Below are positions 27,614-59,525 of a stretch of 64,000 nt of DNA, one piece after another. A model generated the notes under the pieces. That model saw nothing but the letters and a program-made list of their open reading frames with translations. It searched no databases and had not been told where the DNA came from. Source of the DNA: a virus. Its lineage: Duplodnaviria; Caudoviricetes. The DNA lies in IMG/VR virus record IMGVR_UViG_2935109043_000001, positions 1 to 64,000 of that record. One strand, written 5' to 3'. A program made the position numbers and the translations under genes. The stretch's first letter is position 1. Each line of letters starts with the position of its first letter.

Positions 27614-28084
27614 ATGACCAACCCCGTGATCAGGAAGACGCCGAAGGAGCTGCATGAGCAGCGTGCCCGGCTGATCGCATCCACCGGCCTGTCCGAGAAG
27701 GTGCTGCGGGAACGGGGGGAGGCGTTCCAGCTCTACCCGGAGCACCAGGCGGTGTGGGACACCGTGCACGGCATCGACTACCTCCTCGACGGCGCGGAGC
27801 CCTCGCCAGAACAGGCGTCGGCACTTGCACGAACTGCCATCGAGCACCTGAAGGGAATGGACACCTGGGGCCCTACCGTCATCTCGCCTGCCGCCAGAAC
27901 TGCTCTCGCGACGTGGCTGCGTGAGACCGACGCGCTCCATGAGGCCCGGCGCTGCACGGACGGACCGCCCGACTGCACGTGCACAACCGGCTGCGGATGG
28001 TGTGGCGACGAGGACTGGCCCTGCTCCGACATGCGACACGCTCAGGCGGTTGCCCGCGAGATTCTGGGCGGTGGTTTGGGATGA
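27614..28084 (+). CDS. hypothetical protein
   Basis: RBS GAGGAG; C-terminal CGWC...WPC. Confidence 0.6.
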   Translation: MTNPVIRKTPKELHEQRARLIASTGLSEKVLRERGEAFQLYPEHQAVWDTVHGIDYLLDGAEPSPEQASALARTAIEHLKGMDTWGPTVISPAARTALATWLRETDALHEARRCTDGPPDCTCTTGCGWCGDEDWPCSDMRHAQAVAREILGGGLG

Positions 28085-28728
28085 CTGCTGGCCGTTCCGC
28101 TGCCGCTCGTGCCGCCCAGTTACGTGCCAACGCCCGCCGGAGCTGGTGGCAGCGTCTCCTCGCCCTCCTCGGCATACGCACCCCGCACGCCCGCCGCACC
28201 GCCAACGCTGCCGCACGCTGGGCCCACGGCGCCGAAGGCGAAGCCCACACCGCCCGCCTTCTCGCCCCACTCCAGACAGCGGGCTGGCACCTCCGCCACG
28301 ACCTCGCCCTACCCCGATCCCGCGCCAACCTCGACCACGTCCTCGTCTCCCCCTGCGGCACGGCGCTCGTCGTCCTCGACACGAAACGCTGGCACCGCGG
28401 CAAACCCACCCACCTCCTCAGCGGCCGTATCCACTGCGGCCAGGACGACCGGCACAACCAGGTCGAGGCCGTCGCACGCTACGCACACCGCGTCGCCACC
28501 ATCCTCGGCCTCCCCGCCGGGCAGGTCGCGCCGCTCCTCGTCATCCACGGCTCCCCGATCCTCGGCGGCCGGCTCGAAGCCCACACACCGCACGGCCTGG
28601 TGCACGTCCTCGGCACGGACGGTCTGCTGCCCACGCTCCACGCCGCACCCCAAGGCCGGGCAAACGCCCACGCCGCGGCCAGGCTCGCGGCCCGCGTCGA
28701 CCAGCATCTCCGGCCCTACCAGCAGTAG
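28081..28728 (+). CDS. NERD (nuclease-related domain) protein
   Basis: GAEGE..TA..L...GW...HD......NLDHVLV.P......DTK. Confidence 0.85.
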   Translation: MTAGRSAAARAAQLRANARRSWWQRLLALLGIRTPHARRTANAAARWAHGAEGEAHTARLLAPLQTAGWHLRHDLALPRSRANLDHVLVSPCGTALVVLDTKRWHRGKPTHLLSGRIHCGQDDRHNQVEAVARYAHRVATILGLPAGQVAPLLVIHGSPILGGRLEAHTPHGLVHVLGTDGLLPTLHAAPQGRANAHAAARLAARVDQHLRPYQQ

Positions 28729-29659: not shown

Positions 29660-29992
29660 ATGAACGACCTCACGCCTGAGCAGCGCCTGGAGAAGCATCG
29701 CGCGGTGCGGGACTGGCTGGGCTGGCAGTACCGGCAGGCGCAGAAGACGGTGAACGATCTGGAGCGGCAGATCGACGCTGACCGGCAGCGGGCGGAGAAG
29801 GCGCGGCGGGAGCGGTCGTGGAAGGTGCAGCCGGAGCGTGCGGGCCGTCCGGCGGTGCTGCATCGCGGGGGCTGCTCCCTGCACAAGGCCGAGCTGGAGA
29901 GCCTCCTGAATCGCGAGGAAGCGTTGATCGCGTTGGAGGAGGGGTTGGAGGCGTGTGAGGTGTGCTGGCCGGAGGTGGATTTGCGGGGGTGA
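29660..29992 (+). CDS. DUF6233-like protein
   Basis: W.VQ......VLHRGGC...EEAL.AL....ACEVC.P; leaderless TAGACT-N7-ATG. Confidence 0.7.
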   Translation: MNDLTPEQRLEKHRAVRDWLGWQYRQAQKTVNDLERQIDADRQRAEKARRERSWKVQPERAGRPAVLHRGGCSLHKAELESLLNREEALIALEEGLEACEVCWPEVDLRG

Positions 29993-30298: not shown

Positions 30299-31189
30299 AT
30301 GGGACGAGTAGTGCGCCGCGTGCCGCTCGACTTTGAATGGCCCCTGAACAAGGTATGGGAAGGGTTCCTGCTGCCCGACCGACTGACTGAGGAACCGTGC
30401 TCGGACTGTAAGGGCGGCTACTCGGCACGCTACGAACAGCTCCAGGACCGCTGGTACGGCAATGCTCCGTTCAACCCGGCCGAGACAGGGTCGACGCCGT
30501 TCACCGCAGACACGCGTGCAGCACGGGAACTCGCCGAACGTAACGTTTCGCAGGCGCCCGACTTCTACGGCACCGGCGAGGCCGCCATCCTGTGGGAGGC
30601 CACTCGGCTGGCCAACCTGTGGAACGACCAGTGGGGCCACCACCTCGCGCAGGGAGACGTTGACCTGCTGGTCGAAGAAGGGCGACTGCGGGACTTCACG
30701 CACACCTGGAGTCGAGAGACCGGCTGGCAGGCCAAGGTCCCGGCCGTTCGTCCCACGGCGGCCGAGGTCAACGAGTGGTCGCTGCGCGGGATGGGCCACG
30801 ACAGTTCCAACGCGTACATCGTCTGCGTGGCGCACTGTAAGCGTGAGGGTGTGCCTTCCTTCTGCACGACGTGCGACGGGCACGGCCTCCGCGAGGTGTA
30901 CCCCGGGCAGCGCGCGGAAGCTGAGGCTTGGGTGGCGACTGATCCTCCGGCGGGCGAGGGCTGGCAGTTGTGGGAGACCGTGAGTGAGGGGTCGCCTGTC
31001 AGCCCGGTCTTCGCGACTTCCGATGCCTTGGCGGTTTGGATGTCAGACCCGGCGCGCGGTACTCGGTGGGTCCCCCAGGAGGCGGCTGCGAAGTTCATCG
31101 CGGATGGCTGGGCACCGTCCTTCGTGTCCTCGCCGAAGACTGGTGTCGTGTCGGGCGTTGAGTGGGTGGGTCACTCCTCCGAGCGGTGA
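30299..31189 (+). CDS. phage hypothetical protein
   Basis: MGRVVRRVPLDFEWPL...GEGWQLWETVSEGSPVSPVF. Confidence 0.75.
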   Translation: MGRVVRRVPLDFEWPLNKVWEGFLLPDRLTEEPCSDCKGGYSARYEQLQDRWYGNAPFNPAETGSTPFTADTRAARELAERNVSQAPDFYGTGEAAILWEATRLANLWNDQWGHHLAQGDVDLLVEEGRLRDFTHTWSRETGWQAKVPAVRPTAAEVNEWSLRGMGHDSSNAYIVCVAHCKREGVPSFCTTCDGHGLREVYPGQRAEAEAWVATDPPAGEGWQLWETVSEGSPVSPVFATSDALAVWMSDPARGTRWVPQEAAAKFIADGWAPSFVSSPKTGVVSGVEWVGHSSER

Positions 31190-31204: not shown

Positions 31205-31243
31205 GGGTGCCCCCGGCCAGGGAAAGTGGCCGGGGGCACCCTC
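31205..31243. terminator. hairpin terminator, reverse complement of 1305-1343
   Basis: GGGTGCCCCCGGCCA-gggaaag-TGGCCGGGGGCACCCTC between convergent units. Confidence 0.8.
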
Positions 31244-31263: not shown

Positions 31264-31329
31264 TCAGGTGGGCTCTGTCGTGCCCCAGCCGAGGTCGACC
31301 ACACCCCACCCGATGTCGCTGCTCATCAT
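31264..31329 (-). CDS. 21-aa peptide MMSSDIGWGVVDLGWGTTEPT
   Basis: Purine-rich RBS AGGGAGGGGG; lies between the PKS stop and the terminator. Confidence 0.45.
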   Translation of the reverse strand: MMSSDIGWGVVDLGWGTTEPT

Positions 31330-31379
31330 GTCCCCCTCCCTGCTGCTTGTGGTGCCCGGCAGCCTACGCCCGGCCGCTG

Positions 31380-32432
31380 TCACGCCGCCCAGGTTCCACG
31401 GATCGCGGCCGTGTTGAAGCCCGGCCCGTAGGCGACCATCACACCGTGTGCCCCGGCGGCGGGCGGCTCCGCGTGCGTCCGCTCCAAAATCCGCAGCACA
31501 CTGGGACCGCCCAGGTTCCCCTCGTCCCCGAGCGTCGCCGTCGAGTGGCGTGTGTCGTGCTCGTCCAGGCCGAGAGCCCGCGCCGTGTCCGTGATGATCC
31601 GCTGACTGCCGGGGTGGATGACGGCCCAGTCCACGATGTGCTGCTGGCCGAGCCATCCAGTGACGCCGGGCAGTACGTCGTCCGCGGCGCTGAGGGCTTC
31701 CTTCGTGGAGTCGAAGTGCAGCCCGGCGGCGTCGATGCGGCCGGCGTATCGGGTGAGGCTGTCTGGGAGGACGTGCTCGTACGTGTCGGCCGGCCCGGTG
31801 AGGGTGAAGCCGGGGCCGTGGGGCTGGTTGCTGACGATGGTCGCCGCCGCGGAGTCCCCGAACAGCGCCTTGTAGATCATGTGCTCCACGGCGTTGTCGG
31901 CGTGGTTGTAGATCGCGGAGATGACCTCCGCGGCCACCACTAGGACGCGGGACCCGGGCCGTGCGGCGACCATGTCGGTGGCACGGATGAGGGCCTGTGT
32001 GCCGCCGGCGCAGGCGAGCGTGGTCAGCCCGACCCGCTGCACAGTGGCGGGGAGGCCGAGGCGCTGCACGAGGTGGACGTCGAGGCCGGGAACAGCCCAG
32101 CCGGTGGAGTGCGTGGTGACGATGCCGGTGATGTCCTGCGGGTCGAGGCCGTGGAGTGCGAGCGTGTCGCGTGCGGCTTGCTCAGCCATGTCGAGGGCGT
32201 CCTCGAACGCCGCGGTGGCGCGGGTGTCGATGGTCGCGGTGCCGGTGATGGTGTCGGCGGTGAGGGGCCTGGTGAAGTGCCGGGTCTGCACTCCGGTGTT
32301 GCCGACGATGCGGAGGATGGACCGCAGCCGCGGGTGGTCGGCGTGGTGGTGCCGGATGTCGTCGGCTATCTCAGCGGTGGTGACTTTGTGGGCGCCGAGG
32401 ACGGTGGTGGGCTGGGCAATGTGGATGGGCAT
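31380..32432 (-). CDS. type III polyketide synthase (RppA/PhlD/germicidin-synthase-like)
   Basis: Catalytic triad LACAGG (Cys), IHPGS (His), EGNLGG (Asn); ALFGD.AAA; GPGF. Confidence 0.92.
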   Translation of the reverse strand: MPIHIAQPTTVLGAHKVTTAEIADDIRHHHADHPRLRSILRIVGNTGVQTRHFTRPLTADTITGTATIDTRATAAFEDALDMAEQAARDTLALHGLDPQDITGIVTTHSTGWAVPGLDVHLVQRLGLPATVQRVGLTTLACAGGTQALIRATDMVAARPGSRVLVVAAEVISAIYNHADNAVEHMIYKALFGDSAAATIVSNQPHGPGFTLTGPADTYEHVLPDSLTRYAGRIDAAGLHFDSTKEALSAADDVLPGVTGWLGQQHIVDWAVIHPGSQRIITDTARALGLDEHDTRHSTATLGDEGNLGGPSVLRILERTHAEPPAAGAHGVMVAYGPGFNTAAIRGTWAA

Positions 32433-32604
32433 GGTGGGCTCCCCTGTGGCGGCGTCGGAACGGGTGCGGGGGAGTGCTCACGGTACGGCGGTTTGGCTTG
32501 ATCGTTGCCTCAGCTTTTCGCCGTCTTGACGCGCGACCAGCCGAGAATGATCCTCAGGCCCGACCGGTTGCTACCGGCCGGGCCTGAGGAGTGGCTGAGA
32601 TGGG

Positions 32605-32958
32605 TCATTCCTTGTAGGCGATGGGGCCCAGTCCTTGGTGTGCGCGGTCGAGAGCGGCGTACAGCTGTTCCGCGGCGGCCTGCGCGTCATCGAGCCCGCC
32701 GAGCGTGGCCGCCAGGTCAGTGTCGAGGGTGTCCTTGTCGCTGCGGAGGTGCCCTTCTGCGTTCAGGGTCTCGATGTGCTGTCTGATCTGTTGAACGGCT
32801 TGGGGGAGGCGCATGGCGAGCTGGGAGAGGTTGGCGACGACGCTGTAGGCGTCGCCGGGGTACTCCCAGTCGGCTTGTGGGCTTTGGGTGGCGTGGTTGA
32901 GGGCGCGGATGTGTTCGGCGGCCGTGTCGGCATGCTGGGCGGGGCTCTGCTGGGTCAT
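32605..32958 (-). CDS. helical hypothetical protein
   Basis: MTQQSPAQHADTAAEHIRALNHAT... Confidence 0.65.
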   Translation of the reverse strand: MTQQSPAQHADTAAEHIRALNHATQSPQADWEYPGDAYSVVANLSQLAMRLPQAVQQIRQHIETLNAEGHLRSDKDTLDTDLAATLGGLDDAQAAAEQLYAALDRAHQGLGPIAYKE

Positions 32959-32995
32959 GGCGTCACCTTCTCGTGCGGGTCGGACAGCTGGGGCG

Positions 32996-33820
32996 TCAGC
33001 GGGCTCGGAGCATCGGCGTGCGGGCGTGCGCACGCTCCGGCCCCGGATGAAACACGAGGATCACGAGGCGGGCACCGGGTGCGGCCATCGGCTGCGCCGC
33101 GCACATCGTCACCCACCCATCACCCAGCACCGCATGCCGTATCGGCCGCTCATCGCCGTCCGGGTGGATGTAGCCCGTCGACCCGTGCGTGTACAGGGCG
33201 TTCAGTTCGGGGTCGGCGTGTACGTCCCGTTCGATGGCTTGAAGCGTCGGGTCGTCGGGGCGGGCGGCGAGCGCGGCCCGGAGCTGGGGGAGGACGAACG
33301 GGGCCCAGTCGGTGGCCCAGTCGGTGAGGTGTTCGCGGCCGTCCCACAGCATCCACCGCATGGTGTTGTCCGGCGCCTCGGCCTGCGGGAACAGTTCGGC
33401 GAACTGGCTGTTGCAGGCCAGCAGGCCCCACGATGCGTCGGTCACGTACGCCATGTGCGTGATGCCGTCCACCGCGGTCTGCCACACCCCCGGCACCTGA
33501 TGCCCGGACTGCGGATACAGCGGCGCCGGCGGGTCCTCCGCCCGCGCGTACCGGTACAGGGCCACCCACTCCTGCTCGGTGAGTGAGAGGAGCTGCGCGA
33601 CGGCCTGGAGGAGGTCTGAGGGCGGGTGTTTGTAGATGCCGGATTCGAGGCGGTGGTAGGTGCCGATGGCTCGGCTGGTGAGGATGTCGACTTGTTGTTG
33701 GGAGAGGCCGGGGGCGCGTCGGCCGCTGCCGGTGGGTCGGGTGAGGCCGTGGGTGGTGGGGTCGATGAGGGCGCGGCGTTCTTGGAGGAGGGCTTGGAGG
33801 GCTTTCTTGCGGGTGTGCAT
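32996..33820 (-). CDS. MmyB-family XRE regulator with PAS-like ligand-binding domain
   Basis: L.ERRA..DP...GRR..GLSQ..V...Y.RLE.G; AYVTD..W.LLA.N..FAELF..N.MRWM. Confidence 0.85.
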   Translation of the reverse strand: MHTRKKALQALLQERRALIDPTTHGLTRPTGSGRRAPGLSQQQVDILTSRAIGTYHRLESGIYKHPPSDLLQAVAQLLSLTEQEWVALYRYARAEDPPAPLYPQSGHQVPGVWQTAVDGITHMAYVTDASWGLLACNSQFAELFPQAEAPDNTMRWMLWDGREHLTDWATDWAPFVLPQLRAALAARPDDPTLQAIERDVHADPELNALYTHGSTGYIHPDGDERPIRHAVLGDGWVTMCAAQPMAAPGARLVILVFHPGPERAHARTPMLRAR

Positions 33821-34193
33821 GGTGTGGATTCCCCCGTGTTACTGACTGGTTATCAAGCGGCTTCTTGTGGGCGTGTTTTTGGTGTGAAAAACCTACCGAA
33901 GAAAGGTGGTGGGTGTGTGGTGCATGCTCGTCCTTGCAGCGTCCTGCCTGGCTCTGTTGGGGCTGGTGTGGGGGGTTGTGGCCGTCTCGTGACAGTGCTG
34001 TGGTGGGGTTTCGGGGATTCCGGGGTTCTGCTTGCGGTGGTGTCAGCTTTTTAGGGGCGTGCAGGGAGTCGAATTCCGGCTTGGGTGGCCGTGAATACCG
34101 CAGCCTCTCCTTGCACGTCCCTTTTCTGCTGCCCGAAATCGGGTTGGGGAAGCAGCGTGGCGGCCCGGTGGGGACGGGCCGCCGGTAGTGGGG

Positions 34194-35300
34194 TCAGGAC
34201 GGGCCGAAGCGCCACCAGCCGTCGTAGCCGTCCGGAACAGCCGGATAGTTCGCGAGCATCGGCTGGAGGATCGCGAGGTGCCGCTGCTGCTCGGCGAGGG
34301 TGACGTTGCCCCAGTACGAGTCGCCGTCCCATCGGCCGTGGGTGTCTCCGCCGTAGCGGCCGTCGGTGTGCTGCTCCAGGAACTGGCGGGCGTCGGCGGG
34401 CTCGGGGTGCTGAAGGTCCCAGAGGTGTCCGATGCAGGCGACGGTGACGCCTCGGCGGCGACGGAACCAGACGGCGTTGATGGTGCCGTCGTAGGTGTAG
34501 TCGTTGCGGCCCTGCGGGGTGTCGGTGCGGCTGCCGCGCAGGCTGTTGAGGTCGACGGCGTAGGGCTTGCGGGAGATCAGGAACTTGTCTTCGCGGATCA
34601 CGGGGACTCCCTGACGAGGGCGTCGGCGAGGATGGCGGCGATGCGGTCGATGGGTCCGGAGAGGTCGACCTCGATGACGCGGCCCTGATACCAGACGACG
34701 GGCTGAAAGCGGGTGCGGCGGCACTCTTCCTCGGTGCTGTTGCCGCACTCGCCGGAACAGGTGGCGGCCCGGATGGCGTCGGCGATCCGGTCGCGGAGCT
34801 GCTGCGGGTCGGGCTGGGCAGTGGTCACGGCGTCTCCAGACGGTCGAGGGTGGGCGTGCCGGCGGCGTCCAGGGCCCCGTTGACGGCGCGCCAGATCATG
34901 GCGTTGCGGTGGAGGGTGTCGGCGGGCATGTGCGTGCCGAGGTCGCGTATCCGTGCCCAGGTGACGGCGTAGGCGGCGTCCCGGCCGAGGTGTGTCTGCT
35001 GTGCCTGGGTTTCCAGGGCGGCGAGGCGGGCGTACAGGTCGTCGAGGGCGTCGTCGGTGATCGAGGTAGCCGTGTACCGGACCAGAGCAGTCGTCATGGG
35101 CGCTCCTTGGCGCAGATGGGGCAGAGGTCGAGGAGGGGCCCGCCTTCGGGGTGTCGGCGGGTGCGCCAGCCGTCCATGCGGCGCAGGGACCGCAGTTCGG
35201 CGTGGGTGGTCACGCGGGTCGGCGAGTGGGTCTCGGCGCCGCACGGCTCGCCTCGGGGCGGACCGTCGCAGACGATCACGAGGTAGGTGTCGGCGCTCAT
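34194..35300 (-). CDS. cluster of hypothetical genes: 34194-34601, 34598-34828, 34825-35097, 35094-35300
   Basis: 4-bp overlap-coupled minus-strand ORFs. Confidence 0.6.
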
Positions 35301-35674
35301 GCGACCGCCTTCCGGGATCGGCCGCTGTGCCAGGGCAGGGCCAGCCCGTCGTCTGCGGCACGGGGAACAAGGTGGAGGTGGAGATGCCAAACCGACTGCG
35401 TGGCGTGCACGCCCTTGCTGGTGATGAGGTTGGCGTGCACCAGGTCCAGGTCACGGCAGAGCTGCGCTGTCCGGCGGGCGGTCGCCCCGGTCACGTCGGG
35501 GTCGTCCGCGAAGTCGGTGACGTGGGTCTTGGGGATGATCAGGGTGTGGCCGTCGACGACCGGGCCGAGCGGCACGATGGCGACGGCGTCAGACCAGTCG
35601 CGGACGGCAGTGGCGGGCGCCCGGCCGTCGATGATGAGGCAGAACGGGCAGTCGCGGGTGAGGGTGGCGGTCAT
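35297..35674 (-). CDS. HIT-family nucleotide hydrolase
   Basis: CPFCLI, GHTLIIPK.HV, QSVWHLHLHLVPR. Confidence 0.92.
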   Translation of the reverse strand: MTATLTRDCPFCLIIDGRAPATAVRDWSDAVAIVPLGPVVDGHTLIIPKTHVTDFADDPDVTGATARRTAQLCRDLDLVHANLITSKGVHATQSVWHLHLHLVPRAADDGLALPWHSGRSRKAVA

Positions 35675-38098: not shown

Positions 38099-39079
38099 GT
38101 GTTGGAGCCGCCGATTCGTCCGATGACTGCCGAGGCCCGCGCCGAGCTGCCGCCGGCGGGGAAGCCGGGCTCGATGTTCTGGCAGCAGAAAGTCGACGGG
38201 TACCGGATCGTGGCGTTCATCCGCGGCGGCCGGCTGTACCTCCAGTCGAAGTCGGGCGCGGACCTCACCGCCCACTTCCCCGAGCTCCAGGCCACGGCCG
38301 CAGGCGCCGGGGAGGACCTGGTGTTGGACGGGGAGCTGGTGGTGCTGCGCGACGGCCGTCTCGATTTTGAGGCGTTGCAGCAGCGGGCCCGGCTGGGCGG
38401 GTTCCGGGCCCGGTCGGCGTCACGGTCGTCACCGGCGCATGTGGTGCTGTTCGACCTGCTGGGCGCTGACGGGGTGTCGTGGATGGGACGCCCGTACCGG
38501 GAGCGGTGGGCGCGCCTGGAGCAGCTTGTGGAGGGCGGCGCGTTGGGTGGCCGGTGGGTGCTGGTCGGGTCGACGCTGGATCGTGACCGGGCGGTGGAGT
38601 GGATGGACCCGGCGTGGGGCCGTGTGGGTGTCGAGGGTGTGGTCTACAAGCCTGCTGGGGGCGTGTACAGGCCGGGGAAGGCCGGGTGGGCGAAGGTGCG
38701 GGCGCGGGAGACGGCGGAGGGCGTGGTGGCGTCCGTGACGGGCCCGGTGGCGGCGCCGGACACGCTGCTGCTGGCCCGCCGGGACGCGGAGGGGAACTTG
38801 CGGATGGTGGCCCGCACTGTGCCTCTCGCCGCGGCGGTACGCCGGCAGGTCGGTGCGCTCCTCACTACGGCGGGGCCGGACCATCCGTGGCATGGGGTGC
38901 GGTTCTCGGCCGGCTGGGGCATCAAGGCGACGCTGCCGCACACACCGGTCGAGCCGGTGCTGGTTGCCGAGTTCGCCGGGGACACGGCGGTCGATGATGC
39001 GGGCCGCTACCGGCATCCGGTCCGGTTCGTGCGGCTCCGCGACGACATGGCACCAGACGCGGTACCGCCGATGCCGTGA
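38099..39079 (+). CDS. ATP-dependent DNA ligase (LigC-like)
   Basis: QKVDGYR (KxDG), LDGEL, FDLL, EGVVYK, RHPVRF.R.R.D. Confidence 0.9.
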   Translation: MLEPPIRPMTAEARAELPPAGKPGSMFWQQKVDGYRIVAFIRGGRLYLQSKSGADLTAHFPELQATAAGAGEDLVLDGELVVLRDGRLDFEALQQRARLGGFRARSASRSSPAHVVLFDLLGADGVSWMGRPYRERWARLEQLVEGGALGGRWVLVGSTLDRDRAVEWMDPAWGRVGVEGVVYKPAGGVYRPGKAGWAKVRARETAEGVVASVTGPVAAPDTLLLARRDAEGNLRMVARTVPLAAAVRRQVGALLTTAGPDHPWHGVRFSAGWGIKATLPHTPVEPVLVAEFAGDTAVDDAGRYRHPVRFVRLRDDMAPDAVPPMP

Positions 39080-56539: not shown

Positions 56540-57031
56540 ATGAGCGCATCCAAAGCACAGCAAGCCGTCACCGCCGAACGCCGCGCCAAGCTCATCCGCA
56601 TGCGGCTCGCCGGCCACGAGTTCGACGAGATCGCCCGCGTCCTTGAGTACTCGTCGGCGTCCGCCGCATCCAAAGACATGATCCGCGTCCTGGAGAAGCG
56701 CCGCGACGAACAGGACGCCGAGGTCAGCGTCTACCGGCAGCAGGAAGGCGACCGCCTCGACGCGCTCCTCCGCGCCCACTGGGACGCTGCCACAAGTGGC
56801 GACGACCCAAAGGCCGCCGATCTCGTCCTGAAGATCATGGACAGGCGCGCCAAGCTCATGGGCCTCGACATGCCCGTCCGCGCCGAAGTGTCCGGCCCCG
56901 ACGGCGGCGCCGTCCCCCTCGGCACCGGAGCCCTCGCCGAACTCCAACAGCTCATCTCCATCGCCGGACAGACCGGCGACCCCGACACGCTCCTCGACGG
57001 CGAGCAGGACACCGGTGACAACACCGACTGA
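56540..57031 (+). CDS. terminase small subunit
   Basis: N-terminal HTH, RRAKLMGLD, EVSGPDGG; immediately precedes TerL. Confidence 0.8.
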   Translation: MSASKAQQAVTAERRAKLIRMRLAGHEFDEIARVLEYSSASAASKDMIRVLEKRRDEQDAEVSVYRQQEGDRLDALLRAHWDAATSGDDPKAADLVLKIMDRRAKLMGLDMPVRAEVSGPDGGAVPLGTGALAELQQLISIAGQTGDPDTLLDGEQDTGDNTD

Positions 57032-59525
57032 CCTCGCCGAGGACGCCGTCCTCCAGCACTACCGGACCCTGCCCGTACCCGAACGCCGCAGGGTCGCCCG
57101 GCGTGCCAGCCCCGAACTCCGCCTCCGCCTCGCCTGGGTCGAGCGGCAGATCGCCATGGACCGCTCACCCGGCAGCCTCGCCGCCGTCCTCACCGAAGGC
57201 CGCGAGAAGCAGGCCCGACACCTCGACATGATCGATGCGGTGTTCATGCGGATCGCGGCAGGCGAACGCATGCAGGTGATGATCACGTGCCCACCCCGGC
57301 ACGGGAAGGCGCTGGCGCTGGACACTCCGATAGCCACGCCAACAGGCTGGTCGACGATGGGCGAACTCAAGGTCGGCGATCAGGTCTTCGACGAGCAGGG
57401 TCGTCCCTGCAAGGTCACCTGGACGTCGCCCACCTGGTACGACCGGCCCTGCTTTGACGTGGTCACGGACAGCGGAGGCCACATCGTCGCCGACTACGCG
57501 CACGAGTGGAAGGCCAACCTGGACCGGCGGTGCCCGGACCGGCTTTACAACACCTGCGACCTCGCCCGCCCGCGCGGCAAGCAGGCCCTTATCTGGACGA
57601 CGGGTGCCCTCCAGCTCCCGGACCAAGACCTCCTCGTCCCGCCCTACTTGCTGGGCGCCTGGCTTGGAGACGGGCGCTCCCTGGACGGCGGTATCACCGC
57701 CGAGCCCGAAGATGCGAAGCACCTGCGATCCGTGATCCACGACCTCGGGTACGAGACAGTCCAGTGGTCCAACCCGACGGTCTTCGGGGTGAACGGGCTG
57801 CGTAGCCAGCTCCGTGAACTTGGCGTGCTCGGCAACAAGCATGTGCCGGCGAAGTACCTGCGGGGGTCCGCCGCGCAGCGCAGAGCCCTGCTCCAAGGTC
57901 TGGTGGACACTGATGGGTACGTGGCCAAGGACGGCCAAGTTGAGTTCTGCAGCATCAAGCGTGACCTCGCAGAAGCCGTCCAGGAGCTGGTGTACAGCCT
58001 GGGCGGGAAGGCCTCACTCATCGTCGGTGACGCGATGCTCAACGGGCGCTTCATCAGCAAGAAGTACCGCGTCATGTTCTACATGGAAGGGGTCGCCCGG
58101 CTGCCCCGTAAGGCGGTCCTGTGCCGCAGCGGGATACGTGCCAACCGGCACTACGTGATGGCCATGCGCCGCAGCGCCACGGCCACCCGCTGTATCGAAG
58201 TGGACTCGCCGTCGCACCTCTTCCTGGCTGGCCGAGCGATGATCCCCACCCACAACAGCCAGCGGGCATCACGCTGGGGTCCCCTCTGGTACCTGCGACG
58301 CAACCCCACCGCCCGCGTCATGCTCGCCTCCTACGGCGCCGACCTCGCCGACGACCACGGCCGCTGGGTCCGCGACCAGCTCCGCGACTACGCACCCACC
58401 CTCGGCATCCGCCTCGACGACGGCAGCCGGGCCGCCAACCGCTTCGACCTCGAAGCGCCCCGCAACTCGTCCGTGCGAGGCGGCATGGTCACCGCTGGCG
58501 TCGGGGGGTCTCTGAATGGCAAGGGATTTTCGCTAGGCATCATCGACGACCCGTTCAAGGGCTCCGACGACGCCAACAGTCCAGCTCAGCGCGACCGCGT
58601 GTGGAACTGGTACCAGTCGGTCTTCTACACCCGCCGGGCCCCCGGCGCCTCCATGATCTTGATCAACACCCGCTGGCACGAAGACGACCTCTCAGGGCGC
58701 ATCCTCTCCGTCGAACCCGAGAACTGGACCCTCATCGACCTCCCCGCCCTCGCCATGTCCGCCGACGACCCCCTCGGACGCGCCCCCGGTGACGCCCTGT
58801 GGCCCGAGCAGTACGACGCCGAGGAGCTGGCCCGCACCAAACGCGCGGTCGGCGAACGCGTCTGGTGGGCGCTCTACCAGCAGCAGCCCCGCCCCCTCGA
58901 AGGCGGCGTGTGGCAGTGGGCGTGGATCACCGCCAACCGCATCAGCCCCGCCGCGATGCGCGGTATTGACCTGTCTCGCATCGTCGTTGCCATCGACCCA
59001 TCTGGCGGCGCTGGCGGAGCGAACGATGAGACCGGCATCGTCGCCGCTGGCCGCACCCGCGATGGCCAGTACTACGTGCTGGAGGACCGCTCCGGCCGGC
59101 ACGGCGCCAACGCGTGGGGCCGCGAAGCGTGCCTCCGCGCCGTCGAGCTGCGCGCGGACGCGTTCGTCGTCGAGACGAACTTCGGCGGCGACATGACGAA
59201 GCAGGTACTCATCCAGGCGTGGCAGGAGCTTGAGCGGCAGGACGCCACCGCAGGTATGCCCATGCCGCGGATCGTGGAGGTCGTCGCCAAGCAGGGCAAG
59301 CGACTGCGTGCGGAGCCGATCGCTCAGCTCTACGAGCAGGGACTCGTCCATCACGTGGGGGAGTGGCCGGCGCTGGAGACGCAGATGGTGACGTGGCTGC
59401 CTGGCATGGACTCCCCGGACCGCATGGACGCCGCGGTGCACGCGCTGACTGAGCTGGCCGATCCGGCGTCGACGGGCCTGGGTACGGGCGCCTACCAGGA
59501 CCAGCGGCTGCGGGGCAGGCGGTGA
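57015..59525 (+). CDS. terminase large subunit containing an intein
   Basis: PPRHGK/S Walker A split by intein; IIDDP; TRWHEDDL; VAIDP; SPDRMDA. Confidence 0.95.
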   Translation: MTTPTDLAEDAVLQHYRTLPVPERRRVARRASPELRLRLAWVERQIAMDRSPGSLAAVLTEGREKQARHLDMIDAVFMRIAAGERMQVMITCPPRHGKALALDTPIATPTGWSTMGELKVGDQVFDEQGRPCKVTWTSPTWYDRPCFDVVTDSGGHIVADYAHEWKANLDRRCPDRLYNTCDLARPRGKQALIWTTGALQLPDQDLLVPPYLLGAWLGDGRSLDGGITAEPEDAKHLRSVIHDLGYETVQWSNPTVFGVNGLRSQLRELGVLGNKHVPAKYLRGSAAQRRALLQGLVDTDGYVAKDGQVEFCSIKRDLAEAVQELVYSLGGKASLIVGDAMLNGRFISKKYRVMFYMEGVARLPRKAVLCRSGIRANRHYVMAMRRSATATRCIEVDSPSHLFLAGRAMIPTHNSQRASRWGPLWYLRRNPTARVMLASYGADLADDHGRWVRDQLRDYAPTLGIRLDDGSRAANRFDLEAPRNSSVRGGMVTAGVGGSLNGKGFSLGIIDDPFKGSDDANSPAQRDRVWNWYQSVFYTRRAPGASMILINTRWHEDDLSGRILSVEPENWTLIDLPALAMSADDPLGRAPGDALWPEQYDAEELARTKRAVGERVWWALYQQQPRPLEGGVWQWAWITANRISPAAMRGIDLSRIVVAIDPSGGAGGANDETGIVAAGRTRDGQYYVLEDRSGRHGANAWGREACLRAVELRADAFVVETNFGGDMTKQVLIQAWQELERQDATAGMPMPRIVEVVAKQGKRLRAEPIAQLYEQGLVHHVGEWPALETQMVTWLPGMDSPDRMDAAVHALTELADPASTGLGTGAYQDQRLRGRR
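57309..58256 (+). mobile_element. 316-aa intein with LAGLIDADG homing endonuclease (Ala1, class 3-like)
   Basis: ALALDTPIATPTGW start, AHEW, LLGAWLGDG, LLQGLVDTDG, RCIEVDS, IPTHN/S. Confidence 0.9.

What the first reader, a model, noticed from the sequence alone, without database searches (positions are those of the whole stretch)
31264..33820. Element-borne small-molecule module: MmyB-type receptor, type III PKS and downstream peptide
Seen: a co-oriented minus-strand run of an XRE/PAS-like MmyB-family regulator (32996-33820), a helical ORF, a type III PKS with a full Cys-His-Asn triad (31380-32432) and a 21-aa peptide ORF, closed by a terminator and embedded among phage early genes. Known: stand-alone Streptomyces type III PKSs such as RppA and germicidin synthase make diffusible naphthols or pyrones from host acyl-CoA/ACP pools, and MmyB/MltR domains bind small lipophilic ligands. 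Inference: a synthase-receptor pair, i.e. a polyketide-based communication circuit (conceptually like arbitrium) controlling lysis, lysogeny or transfer, or manipulating host germination and development.
Basis: partly seen in the sequence, partly recalled or inferred. Interest (0 to 1): 0.9.

Follow-up and report, generated by a model that had tools for sequence, protein, structure and literature searches.

The report
Violapyrone gene pair on a phage-plasmid
The regulator and polyketide synthase genes flagged here match the already characterised two-gene vioB/vioA cluster that makes violapyrone alkyl-pyrones, carried on a Streptomyces element that is both plasmid and phage, so the genes are known but their role for the element is still open.

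Summary
The regulator (32996-33820, minus) is an MmyB/MltR-family protein. The synthase (31380-32432, minus) is a type III PKS with an intact Cys141-His273-Asn306 triad.

The window belongs to an 86.2-kb virus record collinear with the Streptomyces plasmid-phage pZL12: 51 of 116 called genes match.

The pair is not new. It is 94-95% identical to the pCQ3 and pCQ4 proteins that Huang et al. 2016 (PMC4924298) report as 95% identical to VioA and VioB. In that two-gene plasmid cluster, a vioA knock-out abolishes violapyrone B. A vioB knock-out raises it about eightfold, so VioB is a negative regulator.

The linkage is strict. A VioB homologue sits directly upstream on the same strand in 84 of 84 loci examined, on phage-plasmids and at conserved chromosomal sites. 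Of 34 plasmids carrying this portal type, 26 carry the PKS.

The helical ORF and the 21-aa ORF are lineage-specific additions and not part of the module.

An arbitrium-like circuit controlling the element is untested, and the many non-phage chromosomal copies count against it. Interest is modest: a known cluster in a context that has had little attention.

The parts
32996..33820 (-). vioB orthologue. MmyB/MltR-family regulator with an XRE-type HTH and a PAS-like ligand-binding domain, 274 aa.
   Evidence: Pfam MLTR_LBD 52.1 bits. 94.8% identical to the pCQ4 gene for WP_015060958.1, and 95.3% to its pCQ3 counterpart. PMC4924298 gives WP_015060958.1 as 95% identical to VioB. The AlphaFold model's only significant PDB match is MltR 3pxp.
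31380..32432 (-). vioA orthologue. Type III polyketide synthase (violapyrone/alkyl-alpha-pyrone synthase), 350 aa.
   Evidence: Pfam hits. Triad C141/H273/N306. 94.0% identical to the pCQ3 gene for WP_012840496.1, which PMC4924298 gives as 95% identical to VioA. I174, L190, Y229, G231 and S242 sit at VioA's published numbering. Model TM-score 0.91 to THNS and 0.92 to Gcs.
32474..32511 (-). Promoter-like region of vioA. It has a -35-like GGCAAC (32504-32509) and a -10-like TACCGT (32480-32485), 54 nt upstream of the start codon.
   Evidence: A TAnnnT[G/T] hexamer lies 45-95 nt upstream of the PKS start in 71 of 84 loci. Shuffled sequences give a mean of 8.4 and a maximum of 16. That this is a promoter is inferred, not shown.
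33821..33990 (-). About 170 nt of conserved non-coding DNA upstream of vioB, including an AT-rich block (33875-33906).
   Evidence: The blocks GCAGG(T/C)CAGCG, AGCATG, TTTTCTACGG-N5-TTTTTA and TAATTAGACT are conserved in a 23-sequence alignment spanning all genomic contexts. No Rfam family matches. A divergent ORF there is not conserved as protein.
32605..32958 (-). Helical 117-aa ORF. It is a lineage-specific insertion between vioB and vioA and not part of the conserved module.
   Evidence: It is absent from the 94%-identical relative L005, where about 390 nt are missing right after the vioB stop. tblastn finds it in only 2 of 82 loci, and there at other positions. It is 96% identical to an ORF at the same place in pCQ4. 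It has no Pfam, PHROG or PADLOC family.
32552..32589 (-). GC-rich hairpin that came in with the helical-ORF insertion. It lies upstream of the vioA promoter region.
   Evidence: Read from the alignment; coordinates.
31264..31329 (-). 21-aa ORF (39 aa if read from the GTG at 31383 that overlaps the vioA stop). Lineage-specific and of uncertain coding status.
   Evidence: Found only in the window and L005, 2 of 84 loci. L005 has an in-frame extra DIGWG-type repeat.
31205..31241 (.). Perfect 15-bp-stem hairpin between the convergent vioA operon and the plus-strand gene 30311-31189.
   Evidence: Sequence read; coordinates. The T-run-based scan did not call it.

Best explanation
The two genes are orthologues of vioB and vioA, the complete two-gene violapyrone cluster first characterised on an ~85-kb plasmid of Streptomyces somaliensis. 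Here they ride as cargo on a pZL12/pCQ3-like Streptomyces phage-plasmid.

Shown for the orthologue in the literature:
- VioA, a stand-alone type III PKS, is required for violapyrone B.
- On heterologous expression it yields a family of 3-alkyl-4-hydroxy-6-alkyl-alpha-pyrones.
- The authors propose that it condenses fatty-acid-derived beta-ketoacyl-CoA or -ACP starters with methylmalonyl- or ethylmalonyl-CoA and then lactonises the chain.
- Deleting vioB raises output about eightfold, so VioB is a negative regulator.
- Deleting flanking ORFs has no effect.

Inferred here:
- VioB is an MmyB/MltR-type protein whose PAS-like pocket binds a lipophilic ligand.
- vioA has its own conserved promoter in the vioB-vioA spacer. 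VioB probably represses there, and at its own conserved upstream region, until the ligand or a developmental cue relieves it.
- For the phage-plasmid the cassette is an accessory 'moron'. Most likely it gives the carrier strain a mildly antibacterial lipophilic pyrone.
- It is not part of the element's lysis/lysogeny machinery.
For: Identity:
- The PKS is 94.0% identical over 100% of its length to the pCQ3 gene encoding WP_012840496.1.
- The regulator is 94.8% identical to the pCQ4 gene encoding WP_015060958.1.
- PMC4924298 (Results and Table 1 read) gives these two accessions as 95% identical to VioA (350 aa) and VioB (272 aa). It also reports the knock-out phenotypes.
- The window PKS is also 350 aa. 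It has I174, L190, Y229, G231 and S242 at the positions that PMC5898002 (section 9) and PMC12113368 (passages) name in VioA.

Family membership:
- Pfam hits.
- The catalytic triad is invariant in 26 of 26 sequences.
- Fold TM-score is 0.91-0.92 to THNS and Gcs.
- The regulator model's only significant PDB hit is MltR 3pxp, E 1.7e-6.

A two-gene unit:
- The regulator lies directly upstream and co-oriented in 82 of 82 fetched loci, with a gap of 59-381 nt. The same holds in pZL12.
- It also holds in 3 of 3 divergent plasmid copies whose PKS is 42-56% identical, including one from Kitasatospora.
- No other gene is conserved across all contexts.

Element:
- 51 of 116 called genes match pZL12 collinearly.
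- ParA/ParB, a replication initiator, a large terminase and a portal are present.
- 26 of 34 PLSDB plasmids with this portal carry the PKS.

Own promoter:
- A -10-like hexamer is present in 71 of 84 loci against 8.4 expected.
Against: - I could not align VioA and VioB themselves. Orthology rests on transitivity through pCQ3/pCQ4 and on matching residue numbering.
- No product was measured for this element. Type III PKS product spectra depend on the host's precursor pools (PMC5898002).
- I174 is not conserved in the wider family (V in 18, I in 4, S in 2 and A in 2 of 26), so distant members may make other pyrones.
- VioB binding to DNA or to any ligand has never been shown in the papers I read. 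The 'negative regulator' label rests on a single knock-out.
- The dyad symmetry near the -35-like element is only weakly enriched. The mean best arm is 4.94 against 4.51 in shuffles. Arms of 6 or more occur in 18 of 71 loci, and the best shuffle also reached 18.
- A 76% carriage rate among portal-positive plasmids is high for a mere passenger gene.
Confidence: 0.85

Rival explanations
1. Communication circuit. Violapyrones diffuse between cells, bind the PAS-like domain of VioB and relieve repression, so that vioAB is an autoinducing synthase-receptor pair. Through further VioB targets it would tune the phage-plasmid's lysis, maintenance or transfer, or host development.
For: - Synthase and receptor are strictly paired with no other conserved partner, 84 of 84 loci. 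That is the layout expected of a signal/receptor pair.
- MltR crystallised with myristic acid in its pocket (PMC3406030, passages), and violapyrones have fatty-acid-like tails.
- Alpha-pyrone signalling has a precedent in photopyrones. The introduction of PMC12113368 suggests violapyrones may act as signals, because a low-output VioA variant switched on silent clusters in other hosts.
- The carriage rate on phage-plasmids is high, 26 of 34.
- Close VioB-like 'solo' regulators without a PKS exist on 6 linear plasmids.
Against: - No binding or induction data exist.
- 63 of the 84 loci lie outside recognisable phage-plasmid context. Among them, 42 are at one conserved chromosomal site between an oxidoreductase and a GNAT gene. 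The pair therefore works without any phage.
- In the window it lies about 10 kb from the repressor-like gene and the replication initiator.
- The vioA upstream box has no credible second copy in the window. There are 5 matches at up to 3 mismatches against 2.2 expected, and the other four are in coding DNA.
- 8 of 34 related phage-plasmids lack the PKS.
- Reported activities need microgram amounts (MIC 25 ug/mL, PMC4924298).
Confidence: 0.1
2. Sulfate-shuttle role. As with Cpz6 presulficidins in caprazamycin biosynthesis, the pyrones would serve as carriers that relay sulfate from PAPS to another metabolite.
For: - Violapyrone B is the same compound as presulficidin A.
- VioA is 53% identical to Cpz6, according to PMC4924298.
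Against: - No Sulfotransfer_1, Sulfotransfer_3 or Arylsulfotrans domain is encoded anywhere on the 86-kb element.
- No such gene appears among the conserved neighbours in any context.
- The authors of PMC4924298 also argue for a different role (Discussion).
Confidence: 0.03
3. The pair is a selectively neutral hitch-hiker, or the PKS is inactive on this element and kept only by linkage.
For: - Production is low in the wild type and needed wblA or vioB deletion to become visible (PMC4924298).
- 8 of 34 related plasmids lack it.
Against: - The catalytic triad and S242 are invariant in 26 of 26 sequences.
- Both genes have high GC3 and intact frames.
- The promoters are conserved over deep divergence.
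- The pair persists down to 42% PKS identity on plasmids of two genera.
Confidence: 0.02

Closest known systems
vioA/vioB violapyrone cluster of Streptomyces somaliensis SCSIO ZH66 (PMC4924298, PMC5898002)
   Same: - A 350-aa type III PKS next to an XRE-type regulator of about 272 aa, on a plasmid of about 85 kb.
- 94-95% identity to the same pCQ3/pCQ4 proteins that the paper uses as nearest homologues.
- The VioA residues I174, L190, Y229, G231 and S242 are present.
- DUF6233 and small hypothetical genes are neighbours.
   Different: - This copy has a 117-aa helical ORF plus a hairpin inserted between the two genes, as in pCQ4.
- It has a small repeat-containing ORF after vioA.
- In the sections and passages I read, the vio papers call the replicon a plasmid, never a phage or a phage-plasmid, and VioB an XRE-family regulator, not an MmyB-family one.
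Cpz6 (presulficidin synthase, caprazamycin cluster), Gcs (germicidin synthase, 3v7i) and THNS/RppA (1u0m)
   Same: - Same fold and same catalytic triad.
- Cpz6 makes the same pyrone.
- Gcs uses acyl-ACP/CoA beta-keto starters and makes alkyl-pyrones.
- Foldseek TM-scores are 0.92 (Gcs) and 0.91 (THNS).
   Different: - Only 28-29% identical to Gcs and THNS.
- 53% identical to Cpz6 according to the paper, not tested here.
- Cpz6 sits in a large cluster with sulfotransferases. THNS makes a naphthol from malonyl-CoA only.
- NCBI's automatic name 'PhlD' for this family points to a phloroglucinol synthase and is probably misleading.
MmyB (methylenomycin activator) and MltR (3pxp)
   Same: An XRE HTH plus the MLTR_LBD PAS-like domain. 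The regulator sits beside a secondary-metabolite gene.
   Different: - VioB is a repressor by genetics, whereas MmyB is an activator.
- VioB is co-directional with and upstream of its target. In S. coelicolor, 15 of 16 paralogues are divergently transcribed from theirs (PMC3406030).
- Only 18% identical to MltR.
pZL12, pCQ3, pCQ4 and pSLE1 Streptomyces plasmid-phages
   Same: - A size of 85-90 kb and collinear gene order.
- ParAB, integrase, terminase, portal and tail genes.
- The PKS was annotated on pZL12 and pSLE1.
   Different: The pSLE1 paper states that the PKS's neighbours do not indicate a natural-product cluster on pSLE1 or pZL12 (PMC4487206). The vio work shows that the regulator plus the PKS are the whole cluster.
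Photopyrone PpyS/PluR signalling in Photorhabdus, and phage arbitrium (AimP/AimR). Both are recalled from memory; photopyrones are also cited in PMC12113368.
   Same: A pyrone made by one ketosynthase-type enzyme and sensed by a PAS-type transcription factor would be the same logic. Arbitrium is the precedent for phage-borne signalling.
   Different: - The protein families differ: type III PKS against a KAS-III-like PpyS, and XRE-MltR against a LuxR solo.
- The arbitrium signal is a peptide, and its genes are confined to phages beside the lysogeny switch.
- None of this has been shown for vioAB.

Membership tests
Type III polyketide synthase (chalcone/stilbene synthase superfamily) | N- and C-terminal CHS-like domains above Pfam thresholds | tested here: met
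   Chal_sti_synt_N 93.8 bits and Chal_sti_synt_C 28.0 bits, against a cut-off of 27.
Type III polyketide synthase (chalcone/stilbene synthase superfamily) | Cys-His-Asn catalytic triad | tested here: met
   C141, H273 and N306 align to the THNS catalytic residues. They are invariant in 26 of 26 sequences.
Type III polyketide synthase (chalcone/stilbene synthase superfamily) | Thiolase-type fold of a stand-alone ketosynthase of about 350-400 aa | tested here: met
   Model pLDDT 89.9. Foldseek gives 1u0m at TM 0.91 and 3v7i at TM 0.92. The homodimer was not tested.
VioA orthologues (violapyrone synthase) | High identity to VioA | tested here: inconclusive
   Indirect only. The window PKS is 94.0% identical to WP_012840496.1, which PMC4924298 reports as 95% identical to VioA. 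No VioA sequence was available to align.
VioA orthologues (violapyrone synthase) | Residues shown or used in VioA mutagenesis (I174, L190, Y229, G231, S242) at the same numbering | tested here: met
   All five are present at these positions in a 350-aa protein. The residues are named in PMC5898002 section 9 and in PMC12113368.
VioA orthologues (violapyrone synthase) | Adjacent vioB-type regulator, with a two-gene cluster on a plasmid of about 85 kb | tested here: met
   The regulator is upstream and co-oriented. The record is 86,209 bases.
VioA orthologues (violapyrone synthase) | Makes violapyrones | not testable with these tools
   Needs expression and LC-MS.
MmyB/MltR-family regulators | MLTR_LBD (PAS-like) ligand-binding domain | tested here: met
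   52.1 bits against a cut-off of 26.3. The domain is also present in 3 of 3 divergent plasmid homologues.
MmyB/MltR-family regulators | N-terminal XRE-type helix-turn-helix | tested here: inconclusive
   HTH_31 scores 23.8 bits, below the cut-off of 27. The modelled N-terminus is helical, and weak Foldseek hits to XRE proteins have E about 1.
MmyB/MltR-family regulators | Overall fold like MltR (3pxp) | tested here: met
   3pxp is the only significant hit: E 1.7e-6, probability 1.00, 281 columns. TM-score is only 0.35 and the model pTM is 0.52. A sequence search of the PDB found nothing relevant.
MmyB/MltR-family regulators | Binds a small lipophilic ligand | not testable with these tools
   Known only for MltR with myristate (PMC3406030).
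Arbitrium-like phage communication system | Confined to phages and sited at the lysis/lysogeny switch | tested here: not met
   63 of 84 loci lie outside phage-plasmid context, and 42 of those are at one conserved chromosomal site. In the window the pair is about 10 kb from the repressor-like gene.
Arbitrium-like phage communication system | The signal controls element behaviour through the receptor | not testable with these tools
   No binding or induction data. The motif scan was uninformative.
pZL12-like Streptomyces phage-plasmid (the carrier element) | Phage head, packaging and tail genes together with plasmid partition and replication genes, collinear with pZL12 | tested here: met
   51 of 116 genes match pZL12 in order. 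ParB, ParA, integrase, terminase and portal are present.
Known anti-phage defence systems (PADLOC) | Match to a defence-system model | tested here: not met
   0 families for the PKS, the regulator and the helical ORF.

The most novel reading that the evidence does not exclude
Violapyrones are the natural ligands of VioB. The vioAB cassette would then be a self-contained, horizontally mobile pyrone quorum circuit, comparable to photopyrone/PluR. pZL12-type phage-plasmids would carry it to sense the density of carrier cells, or to manipulate host development, and so adjust plasmid maintenance against lytic growth. The chromosomal copies and the VioB-like solos would act as producers and eavesdroppers.
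Probability: 0.1. Interest if true: 0.8.

Novelty: already known. Interest (0 to 1): 0.3.

Why it matters
The genes' biochemical function is in print, so the finding does not open a new class of system. Three things still have modest value.

1. It links two literatures that, in the parts I read, are not joined. The plasmid-phage papers treat the PKS as an orphan. The sections and passages I read of the violapyrone papers call the replicon only a plasmid and never a phage or phage-plasmid.

2. The cassette is a frequent cargo of one phage-plasmid family: 26 of 34 plasmids with this portal carry it. It also has a sister lineage fixed at one chromosomal site. This makes it a tractable case for asking why a temperate element keeps a small-molecule synthase.

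3. The family is widely auto-annotated as 'PhlD', which is probably wrong.

If violapyrones turned out to be VioB's ligand, this would be a phage-plasmid-borne chemical signal in the main antibiotic-producing genus.

Tried and rejected
- **Unknown type III PKS clade.** This was my working view until. NCBIfam gave only a sub-threshold DpgA hit (118 bits against a cut-off of 425). The best PDB identity was about 29-33%. I dropped it once the vio papers were found.
- **VioB as a class II activator.** I inferred this from a dyad near the -35-like box. I dropped it because vioB deletion raises the product (PMC4924298) and the dyad enrichment is weak.
- **A conserved divergent small gene upstream of vioB.** Reading frames and lengths vary from 2 to 133 aa, so it is not a gene.
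- **A known RNA element in the region.** Rfam at E up to 1 gave only a chance miRNA hit.
- **bldA (TTA) control.** The TTA at 'codon 5' of the chromosomal-clade regulators lies in the likely ribosome-binding region upstream of the conserved MNK start.
- **A shared operator in the vioB and vioA upstream regions.** The 12-mer comparison gave only clade-specific coincidences.
- **A defence-system role.** No PADLOC match.
- **Expression data.** No RNA holder was listed for the stretch, and read laying was not used.
- **Core or accessory.** In a sample of 401 Streptomyces species genomes the PKS family was found in 31 and the portal in 38. Of the four full-length portal hits at 61% identity or more, two share a contig with the PKS and two genomes have no PKS.
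- **Tools and texts not available.** Zhong et al. 2010 on pZL12 was not held. They may overlap with my survey.
- **Searches behind 'not in print'.** 'MmyB' with 'type III polyketide synthase' returned 0 papers. 'type III polyketide synthase' with 'Streptomyces' and 'XRE family' returned 2 irrelevant papers. 'phage-plasmid' with 'Streptomyces' and 'polyketide synthase' returned 6; one was relevant and mentions only that T3PKS occur in plasmid prophages.
- **Rows dropped.** Of 134 genome contigs relatives, the tool kept 80. The context labels in the tree were assigned by me from gene order.

Full report
**What is in the sequence**

The window is about 69% GC. Gene calls based on third-position GC give a co-directional minus-strand run of small genes from about 37.3 kb down to 31.3 kb. 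At the end of this run lie four ORFs:
- a 274-aa ORF (32996-33820);
- a 117-aa ORF (32605-32958);
- a 350-aa ORF (31380-32432);
- a small ORF ending at 31264.

A perfect 15-bp-stem hairpin (31205-31241) follows, facing a convergent plus-strand gene.

The 274-aa protein carries the MmyB-like ligand-binding domain (MLTR_LBD, 52.1 bits, cut-off 26.3). It also has a near-threshold XRE helix-turn-helix. The 350-aa protein hits both chalcone-synthase domains above threshold. Its Cys141, His273 and Asn306 align to the catalytic residues of THNS. All three are invariant in an alignment of 26 family members.

**The carrier element**

The window is the first 64 kb of an 86,209-base virus record rated 95% complete. 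Of 116 genes that I called on the record, 51 have tblastn matches (E < 1e-5) to the 90.4-kb Streptomyces plasmid-phage pZL12, in collinear inverted order. Pfam and PHROG searches find the following:
- a tyrosine integrase, ParB and ParA;
- a replication initiator and a phage-type repressor-like regulator;
- a large terminase that holds a LAGLIDADG insert;
- a portal and a head-decoration protein.

The element is a pZL12-like phage-plasmid.

**How I first read the pair, and what changed**

Sequence and fold searches placed the PKS only about 29-33% from any solved enzyme. The nearest are THNS 1u0m and germicidin synthase 3v7i, at TM 0.91-0.92. NCBIfam gave only a sub-threshold DpgA match. I therefore treated it as an uncharacterised clade and surveyed its relatives.

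A search for the names of the closest plasmids then turned up Huang et al. 2016 (PMC4924298; Background, Results and Discussion read). [quoted passage not shown]
- vioA encodes a 350-aa type III PKS and vioB a 272-aa XRE-family regulator, on a circular plasmid of about 85 kb.
- Deleting vioA abolishes violapyrone B.
- Deleting vioB raises it about eightfold and reveals four more violapyrones.
[quoted passage not shown] These are pCQ3.110c (WP_012840496.1, 95% identical to VioA) and pCQ4.19c (WP_015060958.1, 95% identical to VioB).

The window's PKS is 94.0% identical over its full length to the pCQ3 gene encoding exactly WP_012840496.1. Its regulator is 94.8% identical to the pCQ4 gene encoding exactly WP_015060958.1.

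The window PKS is also 350 aa long. It has I174, L190, Y229, G231 and S242 at the positions named for VioA in the mutagenesis work (PMC5898002 section 9; PMC12113368 passages).

I could not align VioA itself, so orthology is by transitivity and residue numbering. I rate it very likely.

**What the survey adds**

A search of 5.8 billion proteins returned 425 relatives at E <= 1e-20. The top 120 are 62-93% identical. Most are named 'PhlD' by NCBI, and many sit on contigs of 85-108 kb.

I fetched 80 loci from species-representative genomes (of 134 relatives found) and 2 viral contigs. A homologue of the regulator lies immediately upstream on the same strand in 82 of 82 of them, with a gap of 59-381 nt and a median of about 130. 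pZL12 has the same arrangement, with the regulator 65% identical.

Three more divergent plasmid copies were checked, with PKS identity of 56%, 48% and 42%, the last from Kitasatospora. All three also have an MLTR_LBD regulator directly upstream.

Clustering of the flanking genes shows that no other gene travels with the pair in all contexts. By gene order I sorted the 84 loci as follows:
- 21 phage-plasmid loci, marked by NERD and DUF6233 neighbours;
- 42 loci at one conserved chromosomal site, between a GFO/IDH/MocA oxidoreductase and a GNAT gene, among TetR, MFS, acyl-CoA dehydrogenase, def and murT-like genes;
- 9, 4 and 4 loci in three other chromosomal settings;
- 4 singletons.

A quick maximum-likelihood tree (LG+G4, SH-aLRT only, 84 sequences plus 10 outgroups) splits the family in two. 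One is a chromosomal clade of 44 rows (support 96). The other is a 'mobile' clade of 40 rows (support 85), in which the three minor chromosomal settings nest among phage-plasmid copies. The tree does not give the direction of the original transfer.

Among complete plasmids in PLSDB, 38 carry the PKS (E <= 1e-60, 94-42% identity). Thirty-four carry a portal like this element's, and 26 of those 34 carry both.

In a sample of 401 Streptomyces species genomes the PKS family occurs in 31.

PMC5898002 had already reported 21 further genomes with vioAB loci, 'most' on plasmids. Sharma et al. 2023 noted in one sentence that T3PKS clusters were found only in plasmid-borne prophages of actinobacteria (PMC10023795). 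The pSLE1 paper judged the PKS on pSLE1 and pZL12 not to be part of a cluster (PMC4487206).

**The extra ORFs**

The helical ORF is a recent insertion. The 94%-identical relative L005 lacks about 390 nt right after the regulator's stop codon. That stretch holds the ORF and a GC-rich hairpin. pCQ4 has a 96%-identical ORF at the same place. Other phage-plasmids have homologues elsewhere.

The 21-aa ORF occurs only in the window and L005, 2 of 84 loci. L005 has one more in-frame Gly-Trp-Gly repeat. Neither ORF belongs to the conserved module.

**Regulatory DNA (inference)**

The spacer before vioA holds a TAnnnT hexamer 45-95 nt upstream of the start codon in 71 of 84 loci. Shuffles give a mean of 8.4 and a maximum of 16. 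A GGnAAY or GGGAC box lies about 18 nt further upstream. Eleven of the 13 loci that my pattern missed show the same hexamer outside my distance or pattern limits.

Dyad symmetry overlapping the upstream box is striking in some loci, for example CCCCTGATCAGGGG in pZL12. Overall it is only weakly above shuffled controls.

About 170 nt upstream of vioB are conserved across all contexts, including an AT-rich block that is unusual for this genome.

The cassette therefore carries its own control regions. That fits a repressor acting at both promoters, but no binding site has been defined. A scan for the window's vioA box found no credible second copy.

**How it most likely works**

Shown for the orthologue:
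- VioA makes violapyrones.
- VioB holds production down.
- wblA deletion lowers vioB transcription and raises vioA transcription (PMC4924298).

Proposed by those authors:
- Beta-ketoacyl-CoA or -ACP starters from fatty-acid metabolism are condensed with methylmalonyl- or ethylmalonyl-CoA, followed by lactonisation.

Inferred here:
- VioB is an MltR/MmyB-type sensor. The model's only significant PDB match is 3pxp.
- Its pocket would suit a fatty-acid-like ligand, since MltR crystallised with myristate (PMC3406030).
- Relief of repression by the product or a precursor is plausible but untested.

**The role for the phage-plasmid**

I favour accessory cargo that benefits the carrier cell, for three reasons:
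- the pair functions at non-phage chromosomal sites;
- it is missing from 8 of 34 related plasmids;
- it lies away from the element's repressor and replication genes.

A sulfate-shuttle role is unlikely, because no sulfotransferase domain is found on the element. A defence-system role has no support.

The communication reading remains possible. Three observations keep it open: the strict synthase-receptor pairing, the photopyrone precedent, and the published use of a low-output VioA variant to wake silent clusters (PMC12113368). I put it at about 0.1.

**Verdict**

Novelty: already known. Interest: 0.3, which reflects the under-appreciated phage-plasmid context and the open question of VioB's ligand.

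Noticed in passing
window 57015-59525 (+): The large terminase is 836 aa and carries a LAGLIDADG_3 domain (residues 288-335) ahead of the Terminase_6N/6C domains. This suggests an intein or a homing-endonuclease insertion.
   Followed up: no
window 32605-32958 (-), and L093 4243-4596: The inserted 117-aa helical protein has only a weak sub-threshold match to a type VII secretion effector family (TIGR04197, E 0.0015). It moves between positions on related phage-plasmids together with a hairpin, like a small moron.
   Followed up: partly
window 31264-31383 (-), and L005 downstream of the PKS: A small ORF with Asp-Ile/Leu-Gly-Trp-Gly repeats may be translationally coupled to vioA through a GTGA overlap. 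The repeat number differs in frame between two 94%-identical elements.
   Followed up: partly
window 33821-33990 (-), and alignment A3: About 170 nt of non-coding DNA upstream of vioB are conserved across phage-plasmid and chromosomal copies whose proteins are only about 60-65% identical. The stretch includes an AT-rich block in a 69% GC genome. Its function is unknown.
   Followed up: partly
L090 and L091 (linear plasmids NZ_CP108296.1 and NZ_CP108254.1): VioB-like regulators (61-63% identical) stand without any PKS on 6 linear plasmids. They are followed by a 76-aa ORF, DUF3995, an ECF-type sigma factor and an SRPBCC protein, and they lack the conserved AT-rich upstream block.
   Followed up: partly
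window 28081-28728 (+) and 29660-29992 (+), and related loci: A NERD-domain protein and a DUF6233 protein are the most constant neighbours of vioA on the phage-plasmids: gene clusters 16 and 17 occur in 15 and 14 loci.
   Followed up: no
window 35297-35674 (-): A HIT-family protein in the same leftward gene run gives a weak PADLOC match to ThsC (E 3.4e-6). pCQ4 has the same gene.
   Followed up: no
protein family of window 31380-32432: NCBI's pipeline names most members 'PhlD'. The characterised member, VioA, makes alkyl-pyrones, so the name is probably a misannotation that is spreading through databases.
   Followed up: partly
L087 6398-7483 (S. decoyicus plasmid NZ_CP109340.1): A prephenate dehydrogenase gene lies 1.8 kb downstream of a divergent vioA-like gene (48% identical) on a 93-kb phage-plasmid. 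It may be another metabolic cargo gene.
   Followed up: no
window 38099-39079 (+): An ATP-dependent DNA ligase is encoded just beyond the leftward gene run.
   Followed up: no
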